Made by a program: the position numbers and the translations under genes
In this document: piece after piece, positions 14,506 through 47,846 of the stretch
Position numbering within the stretch: position 1 is the first letter of the stretch
Layout: the number at the start of each line of letters is the position of its first letter
Notes under the pieces: generated by a model
Seen by the model: only the letters and a program-made list of their open reading frames with translations
Told to the model about the DNA's origin: nothing
The model's database searches: none
Assembly: GCF_003018255.1 (NCBI RefSeq)
Contig: NZ_CP027440.1
Direction: 5' to 3' (one strand)
Length of the DNA: 64,000 nucleotides
From: Escherichia coli
Lineage (GTDB): Bacteria > Pseudomonadota > Gammaproteobacteria > Enterobacterales > Enterobacteriaceae

Positions 14506-14599
14506 TTAAAGTCCACACATCCATTAATAATGCATTTGCATTACCTTAGTTCAAGCTTATAATTTGAGCAGAAAACAGGCTGTAAAAGGACAGTAAATA

Positions 14600-18298: not shown

Positions 18299-19078
18299 AT
18301 GGAAATCAGTCTGTTGCAGGCATTCGCGTTGGGCATTATCGCCTTTATCGCTGGCCTGGATATGTTTAACGGCCTAACCCATATGCACCGCCCGGTGGTC
18401 CTCGGCCCGTTGGTCGGGCTGGTACTTGGCGATCTGCATACCGGTATTTTAACCGGCGGTACGCTGGAACTGGTGTGGATGGGGCTGGCCCCGCTGGCGG
18501 GCGCACAGCCGCCTAACGTGATTATCGGTACTATCGTCGGCACGGCGTTTGCCATTACTACTGGCGTGAAACCCGATGTTGCAGTCGGTGTCGCCGTACC
18601 TTTCGCTGTCGCAGTACAGATGGGGATTACCTTCCTGTTCTCGGTGATGTCTGGCGTAATGTCCCGCTGTGACCGGATGGCAGAGAACGCCGATACACGC
18701 GGCATTGAACGCGTGAACTATCTGGCACTGCTGGCACTCGGCACTTTCTATTTTCTCTGCGCTTTCCTGCCTATCTACTTCGGCGCGGAACATGCAAAAA
18801 CCATCATTGATGTCCTACCGCAACGATTAATCGACGGCCTCGGCGTCGCGGGCGGCATCATGCCAGCAATCGGTTTTGCCGTGCTGCTGAAAATCATGAT
18901 GAAAAACGTCTACATCCCCTACTTCATCCTGGGCTTTGTTGCCGCAGCCTGGCTCAAGTTACCGGTGCTGGCTATTGCTGCCGCCGCGCTGGCGATGGCG
19001 CTGATCGACCTGCTGCGTAAATCTCCTGAACCGACTCAACCTGCGGCACAGAAAGAGGAATTTGAAGATGGCATCTAA
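18299..19078 (+). CDS. agaW: PTS N-acetylgalactosamine-specific EIIC (full length)
   Basis: 259-aa membrane ORF, uninterrupted; mannose-family IIC; overlaps agaE by 17 nt. Confidence 0.85.
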   Translation: MEISLLQAFALGIIAFIAGLDMFNGLTHMHRPVVLGPLVGLVLGDLHTGILTGGTLELVWMGLAPLAGAQPPNVIIGTIVGTAFAITTGVKPDVAVGVAVPFAVAVQMGITFLFSVMSGVMSRCDRMAENADTRGIERVNYLALLALGTFYFLCAFLPIYFGAEHAKTIIDVLPQRLIDGLGVAGGIMPAIGFAVLLKIMMKNVYIPYFILGFVAAAWLKLPVLAIAAAALAMALIDLLRKSPEPTQPAAQKEEFEDGI

Positions 19079-19946
19079 TCAAACCACCCTGCCGAACGTC
19101 AGTGAAAACGAAGAAACACTGCTGACAGGCGTCAATGAAAACGTGTATGAAGATCAGAGCATTGGCGCAGAGCTGACGAAAAAAGATATCAACCGCGTCG
19201 CCTGGCGTTCCATGCTGTTACAAGCGTCTTTTAACTACGAACGTATGCAGGCTTCTGGCTGGTTGTACGGTCTGCTGCCTGCTCTGAAAAAGATCCACAC
19301 TAATAAACGCGACCTGGCGCGCGCCATGAAGGGGCATATGGGTTTCTTCAATACCCATCCGTTTCTGGTGACGTTTGTTATCGGCATTATCCTTGCGATG
19401 GAGCGTTCTAAGCAGGACGTTAACAGTATTCAGAGCACCAAAATTGCCGTCGGTGCGCCGCTCGGCGGGATTGGCGATGCGATGTTCTGGCTAACGCTAC
19501 TGCCGATTTGTGGCGGGATAGGCGCAAGCCTCGCGCTACAAGGCTCTATTCTTGGCGCAGTCGTCTTTATTGTGCTGTTCAACGTGGTACACCTGGGGCT
19601 GCGTTTTGGTCTGGCGCATTATGCTTACCGCATGGGCGTGGCGGCGATTCCACTCATTAAAGCGAATACCAAAAAAGTCGGCCATGCTGCGTCAATCGTT
19701 GGGATGACGGTAATCGGCGCGCTGGTGGCAACCTATGTTCGTTTAAGCACCACGCTGGAAATCACCGCTGGCGACGCAGTGGTTAAGTTACAGGCTGATG
19801 TTATCGACAAACTGATGCCAGCCTTCTTACCGCTGGTCTACACCCTGACCATGTTCTGGCTGGTACGCCGCGGCTGGAGTCCGCTGCGCCTGATTGCAGT
19901 GACCGTGGTTCTCGGCATCGTCGGTAAATTCTGCCATTTCCTTTAA
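19062..19946 (+). CDS. agaE: PTS N-acetylgalactosamine-specific EIID
   Basis: 294-aa membrane ORF following agaW; mannose-family IID. Confidence 0.85.
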   Translation: MKMASNQTTLPNVSENEETLLTGVNENVYEDQSIGAELTKKDINRVAWRSMLLQASFNYERMQASGWLYGLLPALKKIHTNKRDLARAMKGHMGFFNTHPFLVTFVIGIILAMERSKQDVNSIQSTKIAVGAPLGGIGDAMFWLTLLPICGGIGASLALQGSILGAVVFIVLFNVVHLGLRFGLAHYAYRMGVAAIPLIKANTKKVGHAASIVGMTVIGALVATYVRLSTTLEITAGDAVVKLQADVIDKLMPAFLPLVYTLTMFWLVRRGWSPLRLIAVTVVLGIVGKFCHFL

Positions 19947-19963
19947 ATACAATGAGGTATTAG

Positions 19964-20398
19964 ATGTTAAGTATTATTTTGACAGGGCATGGCGGGTTTG
20001 CCAGTGGCATGGAAAAAGCAATGAAGCAAATCCTCGGCGAGCAATCGCAGTTTATTGCCATCGATTTTCCGGAAACCTCAAGCACCGCGCTGCTTACATC
20101 GCAGCTTGAAGAGGCCATCGCCCAACTGGATTGTGAAGACGGCATTGTTTTTCTGACGGATTTGCTGGGCGGCACGCCGTTTCGCGTAGCTTCAACGCTG
20201 GCGATGCAAAAACTGGGCTGTGAAGTGATTACCGGCACCAATTTGCAACTGCTACTGGAGATGGTGCTGGAGCGCGAAGGGTTAAGCGGTGAAGAGTTTC
20301 GTGTGCAGGCGCTGGAGTGTGGACATCGTGGGCTGACCAGTCTGGTGGACGAGTTAGGCCGCTGCCATGAGGAATGTCCGGTCGAGGAAGGAATATGA
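19964..20398 (+). CDS. agaF: PTS EIIA (mannose family), shared by the Aga and Gam systems
   Basis: 144-aa ORF MLSIILTGHGGFASGMEKA; stop overlaps the agaA start (ATGA). Confidence 0.85.
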   Translation: MLSIILTGHGGFASGMEKAMKQILGEQSQFIAIDFPETSSTALLTSQLEEAIAQLDCEDGIVFLTDLLGGTPFRVASTLAMQKLGCEVITGTNLQLLLEMVLEREGLSGEEFRVQALECGHRGLTSLVDELGRCHEECPVEEGI

Positions 20399-21528
20399 CA
20401 CCCGTTTTGCGCGCCAGAAGGCTGCTGACTGAAGAGGGATGGCTCGATGACCATCAGTTGCGTATTGCTGACGGTGTAATCGCAGAAATCGAACCGATTC
20501 CAGTGGGCGTGACTGAACGCGATGCGGAACTGCTCTGCCCCGCTTACATCGACACCCATGTACACGGTGGTGCGGGCGTTGATGTAATGGATGACGCGCT
20601 GGATGTGCTCGACAAGCTGGCAATGCACAAAGCACGCGAAGGTGTCGGCAGTTGGTTACCGACCACCGTAACCGCGCCGCTTAATACCATTCATGCGGCG
20701 CTGGAACGTATTGCTCAACGTTGCCAACGCGGCGGACCTGGTGCACAAATACTGGGGAGTTATCTCGAAGGACCGTACTTCACGCCGCAGAATAAAGGCG
20801 CGCATCCGCCGGAGCTGTTTCGCGAGCTGGAAATTGCCGAGCTGGATCAATTGATTGCCGTTTCTCAGCACACCTTGCGCGTGGTGGCGCTGGCACCGGA
20901 AAAAGAAGGGGCATTGCAGGCCATCCGCCATCTTAAACAGCAAAACGTAAGGGTGATGCTGGGGCATAGCGCGGCGACCTGGCAACAAACCCGCGCCGCG
21001 TTTGATGCTGGTGCCGACGGCCTGGTGCATTGCTATAACGGGATGACAGGTTTACATCACCGCGAACCGGGAATGGTTGGCGCGGGATTAACGGACAAGC
21101 GCGCCTGGCTGGAACTGATAGCCGATGGTCATCATGTGCATCCGGCGGCGATGTCGCTGTGTTGTTGCTGTGCGAAAGAGAGAATCGTGCTGATCACCGA
21201 CGCGATGCAGGCAGCCGGGATGCCGGATGGTCGCTATACGTTATGTGGCGAAGAAGTGCAGATGCACGGTGGCGTTGTCCGTACCGCGTCCGGTGGGCTG
21301 GCGGGCAGTACGCTGTCTGTTGATGCGGCAGTGCGCAACATGGTTGAGTTGGCGGGTGTAACGCCTGCGGAAGCCATCCATATGGCATCGCTGCATCCGG
21401 CGCGTATGCTGGGTGTTGATGATGTTCTGGGATCGCTTAAACCGGGCAAACGCGCCAGCGTCGTTGCGCTGGATAGCGGGCTGCATGTGCAACAAATCTG
21501 GATTCAGGGTCAATTAGCTTCGTTTTGA
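20395..21528 (+). CDS. agaA: N-acetylgalactosamine-6-phosphate deacetylase (full length)
   Basis: ORF track 20374..21528; ATG at 20395 gives about 377 aa (MTPVLRARRLLTEEGW...); NagA-like amidohydrolase. Confidence 0.85.
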   Translation: MTPVLRARRLLTEEGWLDDHQLRIADGVIAEIEPIPVGVTERDAELLCPAYIDTHVHGGAGVDVMDDALDVLDKLAMHKAREGVGSWLPTTVTAPLNTIHAALERIAQRCQRGGPGAQILGSYLEGPYFTPQNKGAHPPELFRELEIAELDQLIAVSQHTLRVVALAPEKEGALQAIRHLKQQNVRVMLGHSAATWQQTRAAFDAGADGLVHCYNGMTGLHHREPGMVGAGLTDKRAWLELIADGHHVHPAAMSLCCCCAKERIVLITDAMQAAGMPDGRYTLCGEEVQMHGGVVRTASGGLAGSTLSVDAAVRNMVELAGVTPAEAIHMASLHPARMLGVDDVLGSLKPGKRASVVALDSGLHVQQIWIQGQLASF

Positions 21529-21539
21529 TGGTTTGCTCC

Positions 21540-21700
21540 TTTATTGGGCCTTCACTTCCCCCGTAAGGCCTTTCTTTTTCTTTCGTTTTGATCTGTGCAG
21601 CGGTGTCGGATGCGACGCTAATGCGCCTTATCCGACCTACGGTTGGTGACCGTAAGGCCGGATAAAGTATTTACGCCGCATCCAGCAATCCCTTTTACTT
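21540..21700. repeat. REP/BIME-type palindromic repeats
   Basis: Imperfect palindromes gcgccttatccgacctacg and ggccggataaag...gccgcatcc typical of E. coli REP units. Confidence 0.75.
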
Positions 21701-21877
21701 CCCTTGTCTTTTCTTTCAACGATCACAGATTTCGTTTTATTTCCTTTTTCTCCATTGAACTTTCAGTTTCTTTTCTATAGATTTTAACCAACGAAAGAAA
21801 TCACCAAGTGAAATGAAACGAAAGGCAAACGAAAGCGACAACGCCGACGTCAAGTTCATCAGACTAAGGATTGAGTT
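21700..21877 (+). promoter_or_regulatory. agaS promoter with AgaR operator repeats
   Basis: Four clusters of TTTCGTTT / AACGAAAG motifs (about 21729..21745, 21758..21775, 21790..21805, 21810..21836). Confidence 0.7.
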
Positions 21878-23032
21878 ATGCCAGAAAATTACACCCCTGC
21901 TGCTGCCGCAACCGATACATGGACTGAAGAAGAGATCCGCCATCAGCCTCGCGCATGGATCCGTTCACTCACCAACATCGACGCGCTACGTTCCGCGCTC
22001 AATAACTTCCTTGAACCGTTACTGCGCAAAGAGAATCTGCAAATCATCCTGACCGGAGCCGGAACCTCGGCATTTATCGGTGACATCATCGCGCCGTGGC
22101 TCGCCAGTCATACCGGTAAAAACTTCAGCGCCGTACCGACCACCGATCTGGTCACTAATCCGATGGACTACCTGAATCCAGCTCATCCGCTGCTGTTGAT
22201 CTCCTTCGGTCGATCCGGCAACAGCCCGGAAAGCGTCGCTGCCGTGGAACTGGCAAATCAATTTGTACCCGAGTGCTATCACCTGCCGATCACCTGCAAC
22301 GAAGCGGGCGCTCTTTACCAAAACGCGATCAACAGCGACAACGCGTTTGCCCTACTGATGCCCGCAGAAACGCACGACCGCGGCTTTGCGATGACCAGCA
22401 GCATTACCACCATGATGGCCAGTTGCCTCGCGGTTTTCGCACCTGAGACGATCAACAGCCAGAGCTTCCGCGACGTGGCGGATCGTTGCCAGGCGATCCT
22501 GACCTCACTGGGCGATTTCAGCGAAGGTGTGTTTGGTTACGCACCGTGGAAACGGATCGTTTATCTCGGCAGCGGTGGCTTACAGGGCGCAGCACGCGAG
22601 TCGGCGCTGAAAGTGCTGGAACTGACAGCGGGTAAACTGGCGGCCTTCTATGATTCCCCGACCGGATTCCGTCATGGCCCGAAATCGCTGGTCGATAACG
22701 AAACGCTGGTGGTGGTATTTGTCTCCAGCCACCCTTACACCCGTCAGTATGATCTTGATCTGCTGGCAGAACTCCGCCGCGATAACCAGGCAATGCGCGT
22801 AATCGCCATCGCCGCGGAAAGCAATGACGTTATTACTGCCGGTCCACATATCATCCTGCCGCCGTCCCGTCACTTTATCGACGTTGAGCAGGCATTTTGC
22901 TTCCTGATGTACGCCCAGACATTTGCACTGATGCAGTCGCTGCACATGGGTAATACACCGGATACCCCATCAGCCAGTGGCACCGTTAACCGCGTGGTGC
23001 AAGGCGTAATCATTCATCCGTGGCAGGCATAA
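21878..23032 (+). CDS. agaS: galactosamine-6-phosphate deaminase/isomerase (SIS domains)
   Basis: 384-aa ORF MPENYTPAAAATDTWTEEEIRHQPRAW. Confidence 0.92.
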   Translation: MPENYTPAAAATDTWTEEEIRHQPRAWIRSLTNIDALRSALNNFLEPLLRKENLQIILTGAGTSAFIGDIIAPWLASHTGKNFSAVPTTDLVTNPMDYLNPAHPLLLISFGRSGNSPESVAAVELANQFVPECYHLPITCNEAGALYQNAINSDNAFALLMPAETHDRGFAMTSSITTMMASCLAVFAPETINSQSFRDVADRCQAILTSLGDFSEGVFGYAPWKRIVYLGSGGLQGAARESALKVLELTAGKLAAFYDSPTGFRHGPKSLVDNETLVVVFVSSHPYTRQYDLDLLAELRRDNQAMRVIAIAAESNDVITAGPHIILPPSRHFIDVEQAFCFLMYAQTFALMQSLHMGNTPDTPSASGTVNRVVQGVIIHPWQA

Positions 23033-23905
<873 letters not shown>

Positions 23906-24071
23906 TCATTAGTTTTTTATGATTTATCCCAATGTACTTCCCGATTAATATCGGGGAGTGCCTTAATGGTAAAGGAGATAACTAAACCTTAATAAATACA
24001 TCAGTACAATATCGCAACAATAATATATTTAAAAAGATTATATTATTCAACTTTATGGTGAGGATCACACA

Positions 24072-24548
24072 ATGAGCAGTCCAAATATTCTCTTAACCCG
24101 TATTGATAACCGTCTGGTTCACGGTCAGGTTGGCGTGACCTGGACATCCACCATCGGTGCGAATCTGTTGGTAGTCGTGGATGATGTTGTCGCTAACGAT
24201 GATATTCAACAGAAATTAATGGGTATTACCGCAGAAACCTACGGCTTTGGCATTCGTTTCTTTACTATCGAAAAAACCATTAACGTCATCGGCAAAGCTG
24301 CACCACATCAGAAGATCTTCCTGATTTGCCGTACGCCACAAACGGTACGTAAATTGGTAGAAGGTGGTATTGACCTGAAAGATGTCAACGTCGGCAATAT
24401 GCATTTCTCGGAAGGGAAAAAGCAAATCAGCAGTAAAGTTTATGTCGATGACCAGGATCTCACGGACTTACGTTTTATTAAACAACGTGGCGTGAATGTT
24501 TTCATTCAGGACGTCCCTGGCGATCAAAAAGAACAAATCCCTGACTAA
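24072..24548 (+). CDS. agaB: PTS galactosamine-specific EIIB
   Basis: 158-aa ORF MSSPNILLTRIDNRLVHGQVG. Confidence 0.92.
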   Translation: MSSPNILLTRIDNRLVHGQVGVTWTSTIGANLLVVVDDVVANDDIQQKLMGITAETYGFGIRFFTIEKTINVIGKAAPHQKIFLICRTPQTVRKLVEGGIDLKDVNVGNMHFSEGKKQISSKVYVDDQDLTDLRFIKQRGVNVFIQDVPGDQKEQIPD

Positions 24549-24586
24549 ATCTAAAATCGCCTTAATATTGGTTTGAGGTAATAAAA

Positions 24587-25390
24587 ATGCATGAAATAAC
24601 CCTACTCCAGGGATTATCCCTGGCGGCGTTAGTTTTCTTTCTGGGGATTGATTTTTGGCTGGAAGCCTTATTTTTATTCCGCCCGATAATCGTTTGTACC
24701 CTTACAGGTGCTATTCTCGGTGATATTCAGACTGGCTTAATTACCGGTGGCCTGACAGAGTTGGCTTTCGCCGGATTAACCCCTGCAGGTGGTGTTCAGC
24801 CGCCCAACCCTATTATGGCGGGTCTGATGACCACTGTCATTGCATGGTCTACGGGCGTTGATGCCAAAACGGCAATTGGTCTTGGCCTGCCGTTTAGTTT
24901 GTTAATGCAGTACGTCATTCTGTTCTTCTATTCCGCTTTCTCATTATTTATGACCAAAGCCGATAAATGCGCAAAAGAGGCGGATACGGCAGCGTTTTCC
25001 CGACTTAACTGGACAACGATGCTCATCGTCGCTTCAGCGTATGCGGTGATTGCTTTCCTCTGTACTTACCTGGCACAGGGGGCGATGCAGGCGCTGGTGA
25101 AAGCGATGCCCGCCTGGCTGACCCACGGCTTTGAAGTGGCTGGCGGTATTCTGCCTGCCGTTGGTTTTGGCTTGCTGCTGCGCGTGATGTTCAAAGCGCA
25201 ATATATCCCTTACCTGATCGCCGGTTTCCTGTTTGTTTGCTACATCCAGGTCAGCAACCTGTTGCCGGTTGCCGTGCTGGGCGCAGGCTTTGCGGTGTAT
25301 GAGTTTTTCAATGCGAAATCCCGGCAGCAAGCGCAACCGCAGCCCGTTGCCAGTAAAAATGAAGAAGAGGACTACAGCAATGGGATCTGA
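24587..25390 (+). CDS. agaC: PTS galactosamine-specific EIIC
   Basis: 267-aa membrane ORF; overlaps agaD by 11 nt. Confidence 0.92.
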   Translation: MHEITLLQGLSLAALVFFLGIDFWLEALFLFRPIIVCTLTGAILGDIQTGLITGGLTELAFAGLTPAGGVQPPNPIMAGLMTTVIAWSTGVDAKTAIGLGLPFSLLMQYVILFFYSAFSLFMTKADKCAKEADTAAFSRLNWTTMLIVASAYAVIAFLCTYLAQGAMQALVKAMPAWLTHGFEVAGGILPAVGFGLLLRVMFKAQYIPYLIAGFLFVCYIQVSNLLPVAVLGAGFAVYEFFNAKSRQQAQPQPVASKNEEEDYSNGI

Positions 25391-26171
25391 AATCAGTAAA
25401 AAAGATATCACCCGTCTGGGCTTTCGTTCGTCACTGCTACAAGCAAGCTTTAACTACGAAAGGATGCAGGCGGGCGGTTTTACCTGGGCGATGTTGCCGA
25501 TCCTGAAAAAGATTTATAAGGACGACAAACCGGGCCTAAGCGCGGCGATGAAAGATAACCTCGAATTTATTAATACCCACCCTAATCTGGTCGGATTCCT
25601 GATGGGGTTATTAATTTCGATGGAAGAAAAAGGAGAAAACCGCGACACCATTAAAGGCCTCAAAGTAGCACTGTTTGGCCCAATCGCCGGGATTGGCGAT
25701 GCGATTTTCTGGTTCACTTTGTTGCCGATTATGGCGGGGATTTGCTCATCGTTTGCCAGTCAGGGAAACCTGCTGGGGCCGATTCTATTTTTCGCCGTTT
25801 ACCTGCTTATCTTTTTCCTGCGCGTCGGCTGGACCCACGTCGGTTATTCAGTCGGCGTGAAGGCGATCGATAAAGTGCGAGAGAACTCGCAGATGATTGC
25901 CCGTTCGGCAACCATCCTCGGGATCACAGTAATCGGCGGGCTGATCGCTTCGTATGTGCATATTAACGTGGTGACATCGTTTGCCATCGACAGTACCCAC
26001 AGCGTCGCGCTGCAGCAGGATTTCTTCGATAAAGTCTTCCCGAATATTTTACCGATGGCCTACACCCTGCTGATGTATTACTTCCTGCGGGTAAAAAAAG
26101 CGCATCCGGTGCTGTTAATCGGCGTGACGTTTGTTCTTTCTATTGTTTGTTCTGCATTCGGCATTTTGTAA
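25380..26171 (+). CDS. agaD: PTS galactosamine-specific EIID
   Basis: ORF track 25233..26171; internal ATG at 25380 gives the 263-aa product MGSEISKKDITRLGF. Confidence 0.9.
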   Translation: MGSEISKKDITRLGFRSSLLQASFNYERMQAGGFTWAMLPILKKIYKDDKPGLSAAMKDNLEFINTHPNLVGFLMGLLISMEEKGENRDTIKGLKVALFGPIAGIGDAIFWFTLLPIMAGICSSFASQGNLLGPILFFAVYLLIFFLRVGWTHVGYSVGVKAIDKVRENSQMIARSATILGITVIGGLIASYVHINVVTSFAIDSTHSVALQQDFFDKVFPNILPMAYTLLMYYFLRVKKAHPVLLIGVTFVLSIVCSAFGIL

Positions 26172-26939
26172 ATGGAACGAGGCACCGCGTCTGGCGGTGC
26201 CTCTTTACTTAAGGAATTTCATCCTGTGCAAACCCTTCAACAAGTTGAAAACTATACGGCGTTAAGTGAACGTGCCAGCGAATATTTATTGGCCGTGATC
26301 CGTAGCAAACCGGATGCCGTGATTTGCCTGGCGACCGGAGCCACGCCATTACTGACGTATCATTATCTGGTAGAAAAAATCCACCAGCAGCAGGTTGATG
26401 TCAGCCAGCTCACCTTCGTGAAGCTCGACGAATGGGTGGATCTGCCATTAACGATGCCTGGTACCTGCGAAACTTTCCTGCAACAGCATATCGTGCAGCC
26501 GCTGGGGCTACGTGAAGACCAGCTCATCAGCTTTCGCTCCGAAGAGATAAATGAGACAGAGTGCGAACGGGTAACGAACCTGATTGCGCGCAAAGGCGGT
26601 CTGGATTTATGCGTTCTCGGATTGGGGAAAAACGGTCATCTTGGGCTGAACGAACCGGGAGAAAGCCTGCAACCGGCCTGCCATATCAGTCAACTTGATG
26701 CCAGAACACAGCAACATGAGATGTTAAAAACCGCGGGTCACCCCGTGACTCGTGGGATCACCTTAGGCCTGAAGGATATTCTCAATGCCCGCGAAGTTTT
26801 GTTACTGGTGACTGGCGAAGGAAAGCAGGATGCGACAGAACGTTTTCTCACAGCTAAAGTCTCTACCGCTATCCCGGCTTCATTTTTATGGCTGCATAAC
26901 TATTTCACATGCATGATTGATGAGATGTGTCGTCGTTAA
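26172..26939 (+). CDS. agaI: putative galactosamine-6-phosphate deaminase/isomerase (NagB family)
   Basis: 255-aa ORF starting at the ATG directly after the agaD stop; the annotated K-12 start may lie a few codons away. Confidence 0.85.
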   Translation: MERGTASGGASLLKEFHPVQTLQQVENYTALSERASEYLLAVIRSKPDAVICLATGATPLLTYHYLVEKIHQQQVDVSQLTFVKLDEWVDLPLTMPGTCETFLQQHIVQPLGLREDQLISFRSEEINETECERVTNLIARKGGLDLCVLGLGKNGHLGLNEPGESLQPACHISQLDARTQQHEMLKTAGHPVTRGITLGLKDILNAREVLLLVTGEGKQDATERFLTAKVSTAIPASFLWLHNYFTCMIDEMCRR

Positions 26940-26948
26940 CTCGCCTGC

Positions 26949-26987
26949 TACAGGCGTTGCAACGCTATTCCTGCTGCGACGCCTGTA
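26949..26987. terminator. inverted repeat between convergent agaI and rsmI (probable bidirectional terminator)
   Basis: tacaggcgt ... acgcctgta arms with an internal gcgttgcaacgc palindrome inside a 49-bp spacer. Confidence 0.55.
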
Positions 26988-26988
26988 A

Positions 26989-27852
26989 TCACTCTCCCTG
27001 CTGCTCCAGCGCATACTTATACAGCGCATTTTTCTTCACGCCGTGAATTTCTGCGGCCAGCGCCGCCGCTTTTTTCAGCGGCAGTTCTGCCTGCAACAGC
27101 GCCAGCGTGCGCAGAGCATCGGCGGGTAAGTCTTCTTCCTGTGCTTTATGGCCTTCGACAATCAGCACCATTTCGCCTTTGCGACGGTTTTCATCTTCTT
27201 TGACCCACGCCAGCAGCTCGCCAACGGGCGCGCCGTGAATGGTTTCCCAGGTTTTGGTCAGCTCACGCGCCAGAACCACGTAGCGGGATTCGCCTAATAC
27301 CGCAACGATATCTTCCAGGCTATCTAACAGACGGTGGGTAGATTCATAAAAAATCAGCGTGCGCGGCTCCGCTTCAATAGCTTTTAGCGCATCACGGCGG
27401 CCTTTTGATTTGGCAGGTAAAAAGCCTTCATAACAAAAACGATCGGATGGTAAACCCGCGGCGCTTAACGCAGTGATAGCAGCACACGGCCCTGGTAGCG
27501 GCACCACGCGAATCCCCGCTTCACGACAGGTACGCACCAGATGGTAGCCAGGATCGTTAATTAGCGGCGTTCCGGCATCGGAAACCAGCGCAATGTTTTG
27601 CCCCTCTTGCAGTTTCGCCAGCAGCGTTTCGGCTTTTTGTTGTTCGTTATGGTCGTGCAGCGCAAACAACCGGGCATTAATCCCAAAATGTTGCAGCAAT
27701 AAACCGGTGTGACGCGTATCCTCGGCGGCAATCAGATCAACGGCCTGTAATACCTCTAATGCACGCTGGGTGATATCAGCCAGATTGCCGATTGGCGTCG
27801 GTACAATGTAAAGCTGGCCCTGAGAATTATCCGCCGATTGGTGTTGTTTCAT
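26989..27852 (-). CDS. rsmI: 16S rRNA (cytidine1402-2'-O)-methyltransferase
   Basis: 287-aa [31 protein letters not shown] (tetrapyrrole-methylase fold); divergent from lpoA. Confidence 0.9.
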
Positions 27853-27916
27853 TGTGTCGTCCGTATTGCCGATTTAATATTGAGCATTGCGTAAAAAAAA
27901 TATCACTGGATACATT

Positions 27917-29953
27917 ATGGTACCCTCAACATTTTCTCGTTTGAAAGCCGCGCGTTGTCTGCCTGTTGTTCTGGCAGCCCTGATTTTCGCCGGTTGTGGC
28001 ACCCATACTCCCGATCAGTCCACTGCTTATATGCAGGGCACGGCGCAGGCTGATTCTGCCTTTTACCTGCAACAGATGCAGCAAAGTTCTGATGATACCA
28101 GGATCAACTGGCAATTACTCGCCATTCGTGCACTGGTGAAAGAAGGTAAAACCGGACAGGCGGTGGAGTTGTTTAACCAACTACCGCAAGAACTGAACGA
28201 TTCTCAGCGTCGCGAGAAAACACTGCTGGCGGCAGAGATTAAACTGGCGCAGAAAGATTTTGCTGGCGCGCAAAACTTGCTGGCGAAAATCACACCTGCC
28301 GATTTAGAACAAAACCAGCAAGCCCGTTACTGGCAGGCAAAAATCGATGCCAGCCAGGGGCGTCCTTCCATTGATTTACTGCGCGCGTTAATTGCTCAGG
28401 AACCGCTGCTCGGTGCGAAAGAAAAGCAGCAGAATATTGACGCCACATGGCAGGCGCTCTCCTCCATGACTCAGGAGCAGGCGAATACGCTGGTGATCAA
28501 CGCCGACGAAAATATTCTGCAAGGCTGGCTGGATTTGCAGCGCGTCTGGTTTGATAACCGTAACGATCCTGACATGATGAAAGCTGGGATCGCCGACTGG
28601 CAGAAACGTTATCCGAACAACCCGGGCGCGAAAATGCTACCAACGCAGTTGGTTAACGTAAAAGCGTTTAAACCCGCATCGACCAACAAAATCGCCCTGC
28701 TGTTGCCGCTGAATGGCCAGGCAGCGGTATTTGGTCGCACTATTCAGCAAGGCTTTGAAGCGGCGAAAAATATCGGCACTCAGCCAGTGGCGGCCCAGGT
28801 AGCAGCCGCACCTGCCGCAGACGTAGCAGAACAACCTCAGCCGCAAACCGTGGATGGCGTTGCCAGCCCGGCACAAGCTTCGGTTAGCGAGCTGACCGGT
28901 GAACAGCCTGCGGCCCAGCCGGTACCTGTAAGCGCCCCGGCGACAAGCACCGCAGCGGTAAGCGCACCCGCAAATCCATCCGCAGAGCTGAAAATCTACG
29001 ATACCTCATCACAACCACTTAGCCAGATCTTAAGCCAGGTTCAGCAGGATGGTGCGAGTATTGTGGTCGGTCCGTTGCTGAAAAATAACGTTGAAGAGTT
29101 GCTGAAGAGCAACACCCCGCTGAACGTGCTGGCACTGAACCAGCCGGAGAACATCGAAAACCGCGTCAATATTTGTTACTTCGCGCTTTCACCGGAAGAC
29201 GAAGCGCGCGATGCAGCGCGTCATATTCGTGACCAGGGTAAACAAGCGCCGCTGGTGCTGATCCCACGCAGTTCATTGGGCGACCGCGTAGCCAATGCGT
29301 TTGCGCAAGAGTGGCAGAAACTGGGCGGCGGCACCGTTCTGCAACAAAAATTTGGTTCCACCAGCGAATTACGCGCGGGTGTTAACGGCGGTTCTGGTAT
29401 TGCTTTAACGGGTAGCCCGATTACTCCCAGAGCGACAACCGACTCCGGCATGACGACCAACAATCCAACGCTGCAAACCACGCCAACCGATGACCAGTTC
29501 ACCAATAATGGCGGTCGTGTCGATGCGGTGTACATTGTGGCAACGCCGGGTGAAATCGCTTTTATCAAACCGATGATCGCCATGCGTAACGGTAGCCAGA
29601 GCGGTGCAACGCTGTACGCCAGTTCCCGCAGCGCACAAGGCACCGCAGGCCCGGATTTCCGTCTGGAGATGGAAGGCTTGCAGTATAGCGAAATCCCGAT
29701 GCTGGCAGGCGGTAATCTGCCGTTAATGCAGCAGGCGCTCAGCGCGGTGAACAACGATTATTCGCTGGCTCGCATGTATGCGATGGGCGTCGATGCCTGG
29801 TCGTTGGCAAATCATTTCTCACAAATGCGCCAGGTTCAGGGTTTTGAAATCAACGGTAATACCGGAAGCCTGACGGCAAACCCGGATTGCGTGATTAACA
29901 GGAAGTTATCATGGCTACAGTACCAACAAGGTCAGGTAGTCCCCGCCAGTTAA
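27917..29953 (+). CDS. lpoA: outer-membrane lipoprotein activator of PBP1A
   Basis: ORF track 27887..29953; ATG at 27917 gives [28 protein letters not shown] with lipobox LAGC; TPR N-domain plus Ala/Pro/Gln-rich linker. Confidence 0.9.
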
Positions 29954-31510: not shown

Positions 31511-31601
31511 TAATGCCTGATGCGACGCTTGCAGCGTCTTATCAGGCCTACAACGATGCAAACCGTAGGTCGGATAAGGCGTTTACGCCGCATCCGACAT
31601 G
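31511..31601. repeat. REP/BIME element
   Basis: gcctgatgcgacgcttgcagcgtcttatcaggcctac ... ggtcggataaggcgtttacgccgcatccgaca. Confidence 0.8.
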
Positions 31602-47694: not shown

Positions 47695-47772
47695 AATAAA
47701 TTCTCCTGACAAAAAAGGGGCTGTTAGCCCCTTTTTAAAATTAATTTCAGGTGGAAGGGCTGTTCACGTTGG

Positions 47773-47846
47773 CCTGATAAGACGCGCCAGCGTCGCATCA
47801 GGCAATCCATGCCGGATGCGGCGTAAACGCCTTATCCCGCATGGAA
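47773..47846. repeat. REP/BIME element
   Basis: ggcctgataagacgcgccagcgtcgcatcaggc ... gccggatgcggcgtaaacgccttatcc. Confidence 0.8.

What the first reader, a model, noticed from the sequence alone, without database searches (positions are those of the whole stretch)
26940..26988. agaI and rsmI are separated by only 49 bp; no yraHIJK fimbrial operon
In K-12 the chaperone-usher fimbrial operon yraHIJK lies between agaI and yraL(rsmI). Here the two stop codons are 49 bp apart and the spacer is filled by one inverted repeat (tacaggcgt...acgcctgta around a gcgttgcaacgc palindrome). This is either the ancestral empty site or a clean deletion; the hairpin may serve as a bidirectional terminator for the convergent genes.
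Basis: partly seen in the sequence, partly recalled or inferred. Interest (0 to 1): 0.4.

Follow-up and report, generated by a model that had tools for sequence, protein, structure and literature searches.

The report
Empty yra-fimbriae site with conserved hairpin
This E. coli genome carries the common, old "unoccupied" version of a small variable site between the agaI and rsmI genes. Where K-12 has the yraHIJK fimbrial operon, this genome has only a conserved 49-bp hairpin spacer. It is an ordinary and already known strain difference.

Summary
agaI (26172-26939, +) and rsmI (26989-27852, -) converge across a 49-bp spacer that holds one strong stem-loop, and K-12 has agaI-yraHIJK-rsmI.

The interpretation needs refining. 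This is not a recent clean deletion, and the operon is not an insertion that splits the hairpin.
- The two alleles differ by a block replacement: 99 bp (26897-26995) against about 5.49 kb. The borders lie inside both genes, covering the last 14 agaI codons and the rsmI stop region.
- The empty allele is in about 34% of 5,426 complete E. coli genomes. E. albertii has it at 48/49 spacer identity, and so does another Escherichia clade.
- The same architecture and stem core (GCGTYGC..GCAACGC) recur in Citrobacter and Pseudocitrobacter.
- The yra allele is in about 65% of genomes and also in E. whittamii. It keeps a diverged copy of the hairpin core between yraK and rsmI.
- Two rarer cargoes occupy the same site: a RelE/ParE-HTH pair and LysR plus an MBL hydrolase.

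The hairpin shows compensatory changes across genera but has no U-tract on either strand. It is therefore not a canonical bidirectional intrinsic terminator. A role in marking or protecting the 3' ends of both transcripts is inferred, not shown.

The yra presence/absence is already published, so interest is low.

The parts
26172..26939 (+). agaI (galactosamine-6-phosphate isomerase), 255 aa. This is the class-1 form, ending ...WLHNYFTCMIDEMCRR*.
   Evidence: ORF. RefSeq annotation of the near-identical locus in strain 104. Translation compared with K-12.
26897..26995 (.). The 99-bp allele-specific block. In K-12 and E. whittamii it is replaced by about 5.49 kb holding the yraHIJK operon.
   Evidence: megablast and blastn homology to K-12 and to E. 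whittamii stops at 26896/26897 and resumes at 26996/26997.
26897..26939 (+). The class-1 agaI tail, its last 14 codons. It differs from the K-12 tail at 16 of 30 aligned bases (hand count on the, 46 sequences), while the rest of the gene is about 99% identical.
   Evidence: The same tail occurs in E. albertii, the E69 clade, and the TA and LysR-MBL alleles. A 36-aa remnant in Pseudocitrobacter faecalis ends at the same residue.
26940..26988 (.). The 49-bp spacer between the agaI stop (TAA) and the rsmI stop (TGA on the - strand).
   Evidence: A 151-bp query spanning it is covered at 80% or more in 1,821 of 5,426 complete E. coli genomes, at 92.7-100% identity among the sampled hits.
26949..26987 (.). 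The stem-loop. The arms are 26949-26961 and 26975-26987, with a 13-nt interior.
   Evidence: The stem is kept in every variant examined, with one compensatory pair in the E69 clade.
26954..26982 (-). The conserved stem core, GCGTYGC..GCAACGC. It is shared with Citrobacter and Pseudocitrobacter, and with the yraK-rsmI hairpin of E. whittamii. K-12 matches 13 of the 14 specified bases.
   Evidence: It is the only match in the 64-kb window, where 0.14 is expected by chance. In the fetched loci it occurs in the sequence downstream of the rsmI 3' end (the only region scanned); the sole more distant match is a weak one in L043. Covariation is shown.
26954..26965 (.). The 12-nt palindrome gcgttgcaacgc. 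It is incidental, created by the lineage-specific A at 26962.
   Evidence: E. albertii, JJ1886, Nissle and others have G at this position.
26989..27852 (-). rsmI (16S rRNA C1402 2'-O-methyltransferase), 287 aa, ending ...EQQGE*. The K-12 protein ends ...EQQG*.

Best explanation
What it is. The spacer is the unoccupied allele of a small multi-allelic cargo site between two convergent core genes. In this genome's lineage the site was probably never occupied by yraHIJK.

The allele has three linked parts: its own agaI tail, a 49-bp hairpin spacer, and its own rsmI last codon. It appears to be inherited vertically. It is shared with phylogroup B2 strains and, per the literature, the other non-EB1A lineages of E. 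coli, with E. albertii, and with another Escherichia clade. Its layout (agaI tail, then about 50 nt holding the same stem core, then rsmI) also exists in Citrobacter and Pseudocitrobacter.

How the alleles relate. The K-12-type allele replaces 99 bp (26897-26995) with about 5.49 kb. That segment has lower G+C, no mobility genes and no target-site duplication. Its borders sit right next to sequence blocks that are conserved across genera. This pattern points to exchange by homologous recombination in agaI and rsmI, not to insertion by a mobile element (inferred).

What the hairpin does (inferred). The hairpin is a conserved structured element. It most likely defines the 3' ends of both converging transcripts. 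It could do so by pausing polymerases so that converging ones meet between the genes, by protecting the 3' ends from exonucleases, or both. It is not a canonical intrinsic terminator, because it has no U-tract on either strand.
For: Anatomy.

Block replacement with borders inside both genes.

Allele frequencies in 5,426 complete E. coli genomes:
- empty: 1,821
- yraHIJK: 3,523
- LysR plus MBL hydrolase: 64
- RelE/ParE-HTH pair: 13
- The two rare cargoes carry the same agaI and rsmI tails as the window.

Orthologous empty allele in other species:
- E. albertii has a 48/49 identical spacer, with flanks at the usual 88-97% identity.
- The E69 clade has the same 49-bp spacer with a G-C to A-T compensatory pair.

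Same borders in another species: E. whittamii carries yraHIJK with borders 26897/26997. Its operon is 83.7% identical to K-12's, against about 92% for the flanks.

The hairpin core elsewhere:
- It occurs once in the window, where 0.14 is expected.
- In Citrobacter and Pseudocitrobacter it occurs downstream of the rsmI 3' end, which was the only region of those loci scanned.
- Across genera, 6 of 12 pairs show changes on both sides. The covariation score is 0.271 against 0.147 for shuffles, reached by 0 of 500 shuffles.

Pseudocitrobacter faecalis keeps a 36-aa agaI 3' remnant that ends at the same residue, followed by a 50-nt hairpin spacer and rsmI.

The K-12 junctions have no direct repeats. 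The yra segment is 45% G+C against 50-55% for the flanks.

Literature:
- PMC6896753 infers that the E/B1/A lineage acquired yra.
- Preprint 10.1101/2022.10.23.513370 reports that a nascent-RNA stem-loop positions head-on polymerase collisions between convergent genes.
Against: - yra-like chaperone-usher operons lie next to the rsmI 3' end in Klebsiella, Citrobacter sp. MGH106, Superficieibacter and a divergent Escherichia. An older occupied state followed by an ancient deletion therefore cannot be excluded.
- E. fergusonii, E. marmotae and E. ruysiae were not identifiably sampled.
- Within Escherichia alone, covariation in the hairpin is not significant: 1 compensatory pair, reached by 60 of 500 shuffles.
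- The cross-genus hairpin set was collected with a palindromic search pattern, which inflates pairing in the 7 core pairs.
- No transcript 3'-end data were available, so hairpin function is purely inferred.
- Wobble pairs do not favour either strand.
Confidence: 0.7

Rival explanations
1. Ancient deletion. A yra-type fimbrial operon was the original occupant next to rsmI in the Enterobacteriaceae ancestor. The empty allele descends from an old deletion that predates the split of E. coli and E. albertii.
For: yra-like operons converge on rsmI in Klebsiella spallanzanii, K. oxytoca, Citrobacter sp. MGH106, Superficieibacter, E. whittamii and Escherichia sp. MOD1-EC7003.
Against: - There are no yra remnants in the 49-bp spacer.
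- The hairpin lies on opposite sides of the operon in different lineages. It is on the rsmI side in K-12 and E. whittamii, and on the far side in Citrobacter MGH106. That suggests separate insertion events.
- Klebsiella has a different hairpin.
- YraI of MOD1-EC7003 is as distant from K-12's (65%) as Klebsiella's is (70%), so descent is not simply vertical.
- agaI lies directly next to rsmI in Citrobacter youngae and C. werkmanii, Enterobacter, Trabulsiella, Phytobacter and Pseudocitrobacter.
Confidence: 0.17
2. Recent clean deletion of yraHIJK in this strain's lineage.
For: Partial deletions and IS disruptions of yra do occur in E. coli. Strain EC25, for example, keeps only the first 136 nt of the agaI-yraH spacer.
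Against: - The window carries the class-1 agaI tail and rsmI end, not K-12-type sequence, on both sides of the junction.
- The same 49 bp is found in 1,821 genomes and in E. albertii.
- A recent deletion from a yra allele would leave class-2 flanks.
Confidence: 0.02
3. The hairpin is a canonical bidirectional Rho-independent terminator that serves both agaI and rsmI.
For: It is a strong G+C-rich stem-loop between convergent stop codons. The related K-12 hairpin is followed in the rsmI sense by TCTTCTTTTA, which looks like a true intrinsic terminator. The Citrobacter copies are followed by TTTC in the agaI sense.
Against: In the window the 3' flanks are ATCACTCT on the + strand and GCAGGCGA on the - strand, so there is no U-tract. 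The scan lists nine terminator-like sites in 26000-28000 but not this hairpin. The stem also starts only 1-2 nt after the rsmI stop codon, where a terminating ribosome would cover it.
Confidence: 0.15
4. The hairpin is a decayed REP/BIME element or a chance palindrome with no function.
For: One arm matches a REP arm at 12 of 13 positions (the REP consensus was recalled from memory). In Trabulsiella and Enterobacter the agaI-rsmI spacer holds sequences that look like REP elements by eye, judged against the same recalled consensus.
Against: - It is single-copy per genome and has no second copy in the window. True REPs are readily found elsewhere in the window.
- Folding energy z-scores are -4 to -5.
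- The stem core is conserved across three genera with compensatory changes.
Confidence: 0.06

Closest known systems
Phylogroup-linked presence or absence of the cryptic Yra (yraHIJK) chaperone-usher fimbrial operon in E. coli
   Same: This is exactly that polymorphism. The operon is present in K-12, BL21, HS, O157, O111 and O121 type genomes. It is absent from B2 strains such as S88, UTI89, ATCC 11775, Nissle and JJ1886, and from this window. PMC6896753 states that the E/B1/A lineage acquired yra. PMC5717340 notes the uneven distribution of YraJ.
   Different: I did not find the junction anatomy described in the papers searched. That covers the 99 bp against 5.49 kb replacement, the borders inside both genes, the two further rare cargoes, and the presence of both alleles in other Escherichia species.
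Regions of genome plasticity, or recombination hot spots, between conserved core genes in E. coli
   Same: Fixed flanks hold alternative cargoes: fimbriae, a toxin-antitoxin pair, a regulator plus hydrolase, or nothing. There is no integrase, tRNA or direct repeat, which fits exchange by flanking homologous recombination.
   Different: The site is very small. The zone of divergence includes the coding 3' ends of both flanking genes, so each allele class carries its own AgaI and RsmI C-terminus.
Bidirectional terminators between convergent genes (SEnd-seq work; collision model in preprint 10.1101/2022.10.23.513370)
   Same: A single stem-loop lies between two convergent stop codons. A nascent-RNA stem-loop is reported to position head-on polymerase collisions.
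   Different: There are no flanking A- or U-tracts here, and no transcript data exist for this allele because K-12 lacks it.
REP/BIME intergenic palindromes
   Same: It is an intergenic, G+C-rich imperfect palindrome at the 3' ends of genes, and it could stabilise mRNA 3' ends.
   Different: It is single-copy and locus-specific, and it does not match the full REP consensus.

Membership tests
Rho-independent (intrinsic) terminator | A G+C-rich stem-loop with a short loop, downstream of a stop codon | tested here: met
   The stem is 13 bp (16 bp in sister alleles). It folds at -23.9 and -23.5 kcal/mol. It begins 9 nt after the agaI stop and 1-2 nt after the rsmI stop.
Rho-independent (intrinsic) terminator | A U-tract immediately 3' of the stem (at least 5 T within 8 nt) | tested here: not met
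   The + strand tail is ATCACTCT and the - strand tail is GCAGGCGA. The scan of 26000-28000 does not list this hairpin.
Bidirectional intrinsic terminator | A hairpin between convergent genes, with an A-tract 5' and a U-tract 3' so that both strands read hairpin plus U-tract | tested here: not met
   The genes are convergent, so that part is met. There is no A- or U-tract. The K-12 allele's hairpin does have a T-rich tail (TCTTCTTTTA) in the rsmI sense.
Bidirectional intrinsic terminator | Mapped RNA 3' ends of both transcripts at the hairpin | not testable with these tools
   No transcript-end data are available for an empty-allele strain.
REP/BIME repeat family | Many dispersed copies per genome | tested here: not met
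   A 151-bp query gives a median of 1 place per genome. The window holds no second copy, while true REPs are found at about 21.6, 31.5 and 47.8 kb.
REP/BIME repeat family | A full-length match to the REP consensus | tested here: not met
   The best local match is 12/13 to one arm only. The consensus was recalled from memory.
Empty allele of the yraHIJK site | agaI and rsmI adjacent with no fimbrial genes between them | tested here: met
.
Empty allele of the yraHIJK site | The same junction is shared by other genomes that lack yra | tested here: met
   It is found in 1,821 genomes, with a 151-bp junction query identical in ATCC 11775 and UTI89. The 49-bp spacer is 48/49 identical in E. albertii.
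Mobile-element insertion (genomic island or transposon) as the origin of the yra allele | An integrase or transposase, target-site duplication or att repeats at the borders | tested here: not met
   The K-12 segment has only four annotated genes, yraH, yraI, yraJ and yraK. Its junctions share no direct repeat of 7 nt or more.
Conserved structured intergenic element | Base pairs are kept through compensatory substitutions in relatives | tested here: inconclusive
   Within Escherichia there is 1 compensatory pair, which is not significant. Across genera, 6 of 12 pairs show double changes and 0 of 500 shuffles reach the score. However, the sequences were collected with a palindromic pattern. The pairs outside that pattern (columns 5/36 and 13-15/26-28) still covary.

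The most novel reading that the evidence does not exclude
The agaI-rsmI junction may be an old polymorphism shared across Escherichia species. Two deeply diverged allele classes would persist or move between species by recombination. Each class has its own AgaI C-terminus, its own RsmI last codon and its own variant of one conserved hairpin. The hairpin, which lacks a U-tract, would be a conserved collision- or pause-type element that sets the boundary between the two convergent transcripts in several enterobacterial genera.
Probability: 0.35. Interest if true: 0.35.

Novelty: already known. Interest (0 to 1): 0.15.

Why it matters
It matters little. The absence of yraHIJK outside the E/B1/A lineages of E. 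coli is already published, and fimbrial operons are well known to be variable.

The added details are modest:
- The exact borders show allele replacement by homologous recombination, not insertion or deletion within the spacer.
- Both alleles occur in other Escherichia species. This qualifies the simple published statement that the E/B1/A lineage acquired yra.
- The hairpin is a compact test case. It is conserved across genera, and its U-tract was lost on one allele and kept on the other. It could be used to ask whether stem-loops without U-tracts set transcript boundaries between convergent genes.

Tried and rejected
- Rfam search of 26700-27200 at E-value up to 10 gave only chance-level hits.
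- The terminator scan did not call the hairpin.
- REP/BIME identity was rejected on copy number and consensus.
- Covariation within Escherichia alone was uninformative.
- Target-site duplications or inverted repeats at the K-12 yra borders were sought and none found.
- I looked for the outer stem (TACAGGC / GCCTGTA) at the K-12 junctions, as a split hairpin would predict. It is absent.
- Wurpel et al. 2013 (PMC3559732) has no usable text on Yra.
- Phylogroups of individual genomes could not be assigned with these tools. Phylogroup statements rest on well-known strains and on PMC6896753.
E. fergusonii, E. marmotae and E. ruysiae were not identifiably recovered.
- Anchors for E. albertii and MOD1-EC7003 mis-hit. 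I ignored those two rows and used the alignment instead.

Full report
**1. Observation**

The window carries agaI on the + strand (26172..26939, 255 aa) and rsmI on the - strand (26989..27852, 287 aa). The two stop codons are separated by 26940..26988, which is 49 bp.

The spacer holds an inverted repeat with arms at 26949-26961 and 26975-26987. Each arm is 13 nt and there is one mismatch. As RNA it folds at -23.9 kcal/mol on the + strand and -23.5 kcal/mol on the - strand. The z-scores are -5.3 and -4.1, and none of 200 shuffles folded as well.

It exists only because this lineage has A at 26962. E. albertii, ST131 and Nissle have G there, which extends the stem to 16 bp at -28.6 to -28.8 kcal/mol.

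The window is E. coli. It is 97.4-98.4% identical to K-12 in the flanks and 99.1-99.4% identical to its closest complete genomes.

**2. The recalled K-12 order is right, but the difference is a block replacement**

DH5alpha, a K-12 derivative, is annotated agaI, yraH, yraI, yraJ, yraK, rsmI.

Aligning the window to K-12 shows that homology ends inside agaI at 26897, which is nucleotide 725 of the gene. It resumes inside rsmI at 26996. So 99 bp in the window (26897-26995) correspond to about 5.49 kb in K-12.

Each allele therefore carries its own protein ends:

| Protein | Window | K-12 |
|---|---|---|
| AgaI C-terminus | ...WLHNYFTCMIDEMCRR* | ...WLHSNFICLINT* |
| RsmI C-terminus | ...EQQGE* | ...EQQG* |

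The two agaI tails can still be aligned codon for codon. They differ at 16 of 30 bases, while the rest of agaI is about 99% identical. Each tail differs from the Citrobacter youngae tail at 12 of 30 bases. These are counts made by hand on the sequences.

The left border lies directly after GCTTCATTTTTATGGCTGCA. That block is identical in Citrobacter youngae and E. coli.

The K-12 junctions share no direct repeat. The yra segment is 45% G+C against 50-55% for the flanks, and the agaI-yraH spacer is 27% G+C.

**3. Survey of 5,426 complete E. coli genomes**

| Allele at the agaI-rsmI site | Genomes | Share |
|---|---|---|
| yraHIJK (3,264 nearly complete; several cut by IS1 or IS1203) | 3,523 | about 65% |
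| Empty, 49-bp hairpin spacer | 1,821 | about 34% |
| LysR regulator plus MBL-fold hydrolase | 64 | about 1.2% |
| RelE/ParE toxin plus HTH protein | 13 | about 0.2% |

- Empty-allele genomes include ATCC 11775, UTI89, S88, Nissle and JJ1886.
- Both rare cargoes have the window-type agaI tail and rsmI end, but a different spacer without the hairpin.
- The site therefore has at least four alleles.
- The uneven distribution of yra is already published. PMC6896753 infers that the E/B1/A lineage acquired the operon. PMC5717340 notes the patchy distribution of YraJ.

**4. Outgroups**

One scan of GTDB species representatives with RsmI returned 80 loci. I screened them by tblastn and read the tails and spacers.

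- **E. albertii** has the empty allele. Its spacer is 48/49 identical, its tail is ...NHFTCLTDEMCRR* and its RsmI ends ...GE*. The flanking identity of 88-97% is ordinary for these two species, so this looks vertical and not a recent transfer.
- **A roughly 93%-identical Escherichia clade** (strain E69) has the same 49-bp layout, with a G-C to A-T compensatory pair.
- **E. whittamii** has yraHIJK with the same borders (26897/26997). Its proteins are 83-90% identical to K-12's. The operon is 83.7% identical at the DNA level, against about 92% for the flanks.
- **Escherichia sp. MOD1-EC7003** has a very divergent yra-like operon at the same place (53-65% amino-acid identity).
- **Klebsiella spallanzanii, K. 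oxytoca, Citrobacter sp. MGH106 and Superficieibacter** have yra-like operons converging on rsmI.
- **Citrobacter youngae, C. werkmanii, Enterobacter, Trabulsiella and Phytobacter** have agaI directly next to rsmI.
- **A Pseudocitrobacter MAG** has the RelE/HTH pair next to rsmI.
- **Pseudocitrobacter faecalis** keeps only a 36-aa agaI 3' remnant. Its tail (...WLHKKLTCLVDELIAR*) ends at the same residue as the window's. It is followed by a 50-nt hairpin spacer and then rsmI.

**5. The hairpin is an old, locus-specific element and the operon does not split it**

The core GCGTYGC-N(0-20)-GCAACGC occurs once in the 64-kb window, where 0.14 is expected by chance. In the fetched loci it occurs downstream of the rsmI 3' end (the region scanned) in Escherichia, Citrobacter and Pseudocitrobacter. 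One weak match, in L043, lies further away.

- In E. whittamii the core lies between yraK and rsmI.
- In K-12 it lies in the same place and matches 13 of the 14 specified bases: CGTTGCGTT-ttgatt-AACGCAACG. In the rsmI sense it is followed by TCTTCTTTTA.
- So the Escherichia yra operon lies wholly on the agaI side of the hairpin. The outer stem (TACAGGC / GCCTGTA) is at neither junction.
- In Citrobacter sp. MGH106 the yra-like operon lies on the other side, between the hairpin and rsmI. There the hairpin follows an upstream 257-aa ORF (function not checked) and has a TTTC tail.
- The Pseudocitrobacter toxin-antitoxin pair also lies between the hairpin and rsmI.
- Cargo on both sides of the same hairpin suggests separate insertion events at one hot spot.

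The covariation evidence is mixed.

- Within Escherichia it is not significant: 1 compensatory pair, reached by 60 of 500 shuffles.
- Across genera, 6 of 12 pairs change on both sides. The score is 0.271 against a shuffled mean of 0.147, reached by 0 of 500 shuffles.
- One caveat applies. I collected the cross-genus set with a palindromic search pattern, which forces pairing in the 7 core positions. The covarying pairs outside that pattern (columns 5/36, 13/28, 14/27, 15/26) are not affected.

**6. Function of the hairpin**

- There is no U-tract on either strand. The tails are ATCACTCT (+) and GCAGGCGA (-).
- The consensus scan lists nine terminator-like sites in 26000-28000 but not this hairpin.
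- No Rfam family matches.
- It is single-copy, while genuine REP elements lie elsewhere in the window.
- G-U wobble substitutions do not favour one strand.

The hairpin therefore fails a defining feature of canonical and bidirectional intrinsic terminators.

The best remaining mechanism is inferred, not shown. The stem-loop would form at the ends of both converging transcripts. It could pause polymerases so that converging ones meet between the genes, as proposed for convergent pairs in preprint 10.1101/2022.10.23.513370. It could also protect the 3' ends from exonucleases.

A canonical-looking + strand terminator lies at 27053-27075 inside rsmI. It could catch agaI read-through.

**7. Verdict**

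- 'Ancestral empty site' is favoured over 'clean deletion' for this lineage, with confidence of about 0.7.
- A recent deletion is excluded, because the flanks are class-1 and not K-12-type.
- A much older deletion, from a fimbriated ancestor of the family, remains possible at about 0.17.
- The hairpin is a conserved structure of this locus, but its role as a terminator is unproven.
- The polymorphism itself is already in the literature, so novelty and interest are low.

Noticed in passing
window 26179-26203: A perfect 10-bp stem (GAGGCACCGC-gtctg-GCGGTGCCTC) is followed by TTTACTT. It is called terminator-like on both strands. It lies in codons 3-11 of the annotated agaI, directly after agaD. 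AgaI matches in other genera mostly begin around residue 19-27. The true agaI start may therefore be the GTG at codon 19, with the hairpin acting as an attenuator between agaD and agaI.
   Followed up: no
window 27053-27075 (+ strand, inside rsmI): The stem GCGGC..GCCGC is followed by TTTTTT on the strand antisense to rsmI. It could terminate agaI read-through, or it could be a by-product of the KKAAALAA coding sequence.
   Followed up: no
L003 8071-8921 (strain 2018-05-2CC) and L004 8071-10491 (ETEC L7 isolate): Two rare alternative cargoes occupy the same agaI-rsmI site. One is a RelE/ParE toxin with an HTH protein (13 genomes). The other is a LysR regulator with an MBL-fold hydrolase (64 genomes, including O145:H28). 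L004 keeps the first and last parts of the toxin-antitoxin spacer, so one allele appears to be derived from the other.
   Followed up: partly
window 18871-26940: The window is colinear with a locus annotated agaW-agaE-agaF-nagA(agaA)-agaS-kbaY-agaB-agaC-agaD-agaI. It therefore has the complete aga/gam cluster. From my own knowledge, the K-12 version has lost part of the cluster by deletion.
   Followed up: partly
L007 10861-11223 ('E. coli' SCPM-O-B-8794, about 92-94% identical to the window): This cryptic-clade genome lacks the whole aga cluster. After rsmI and a remnant of the toxin-antitoxin type spacer, homology jumps to window position 14547.
   Followed up: no
L012, L014 and L020, about 25-65 nt downstream of the rsmI stop (Citrobacter): The Citrobacter agaI-rsmI spacers carry three tandem copies of GTCGGAAGAAAT between the hairpin and rsmI.
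   Followed up: no
L001 3837-6352; one search hits H65, H68, H74-H78, H80: yraJ is annotated as frameshifted in DH5alpha. In O157:H7 the operon is interrupted by IS1203, and in several other strains by IS1. Strain EC25 keeps only the first 136 nt of the agaI-yraH spacer. The operon is therefore decaying in many of the genomes that carry it.
   Followed up: no
window about 21624-21683, 31515-31596 and 47771-47837: Genuine REP/BIME elements match REP consensus sequences recalled from memory. They served as a positive control for the REP test.
   Followed up: no
L018 1677-7101 (Escherichia sp. MOD1-EC7003): A second, deeply divergent lineage of yra-like fimbrial operon (53-65% amino-acid identity to K-12) sits at the same agaI-rsmI site. 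It has its own agaI tail (...NNFTCLFDKLTLEKHNYIL*). It may be related to the UshC group that PMC5717340 reports as mutually exclusive with YraJ. This was not tested.
   Followed up: no
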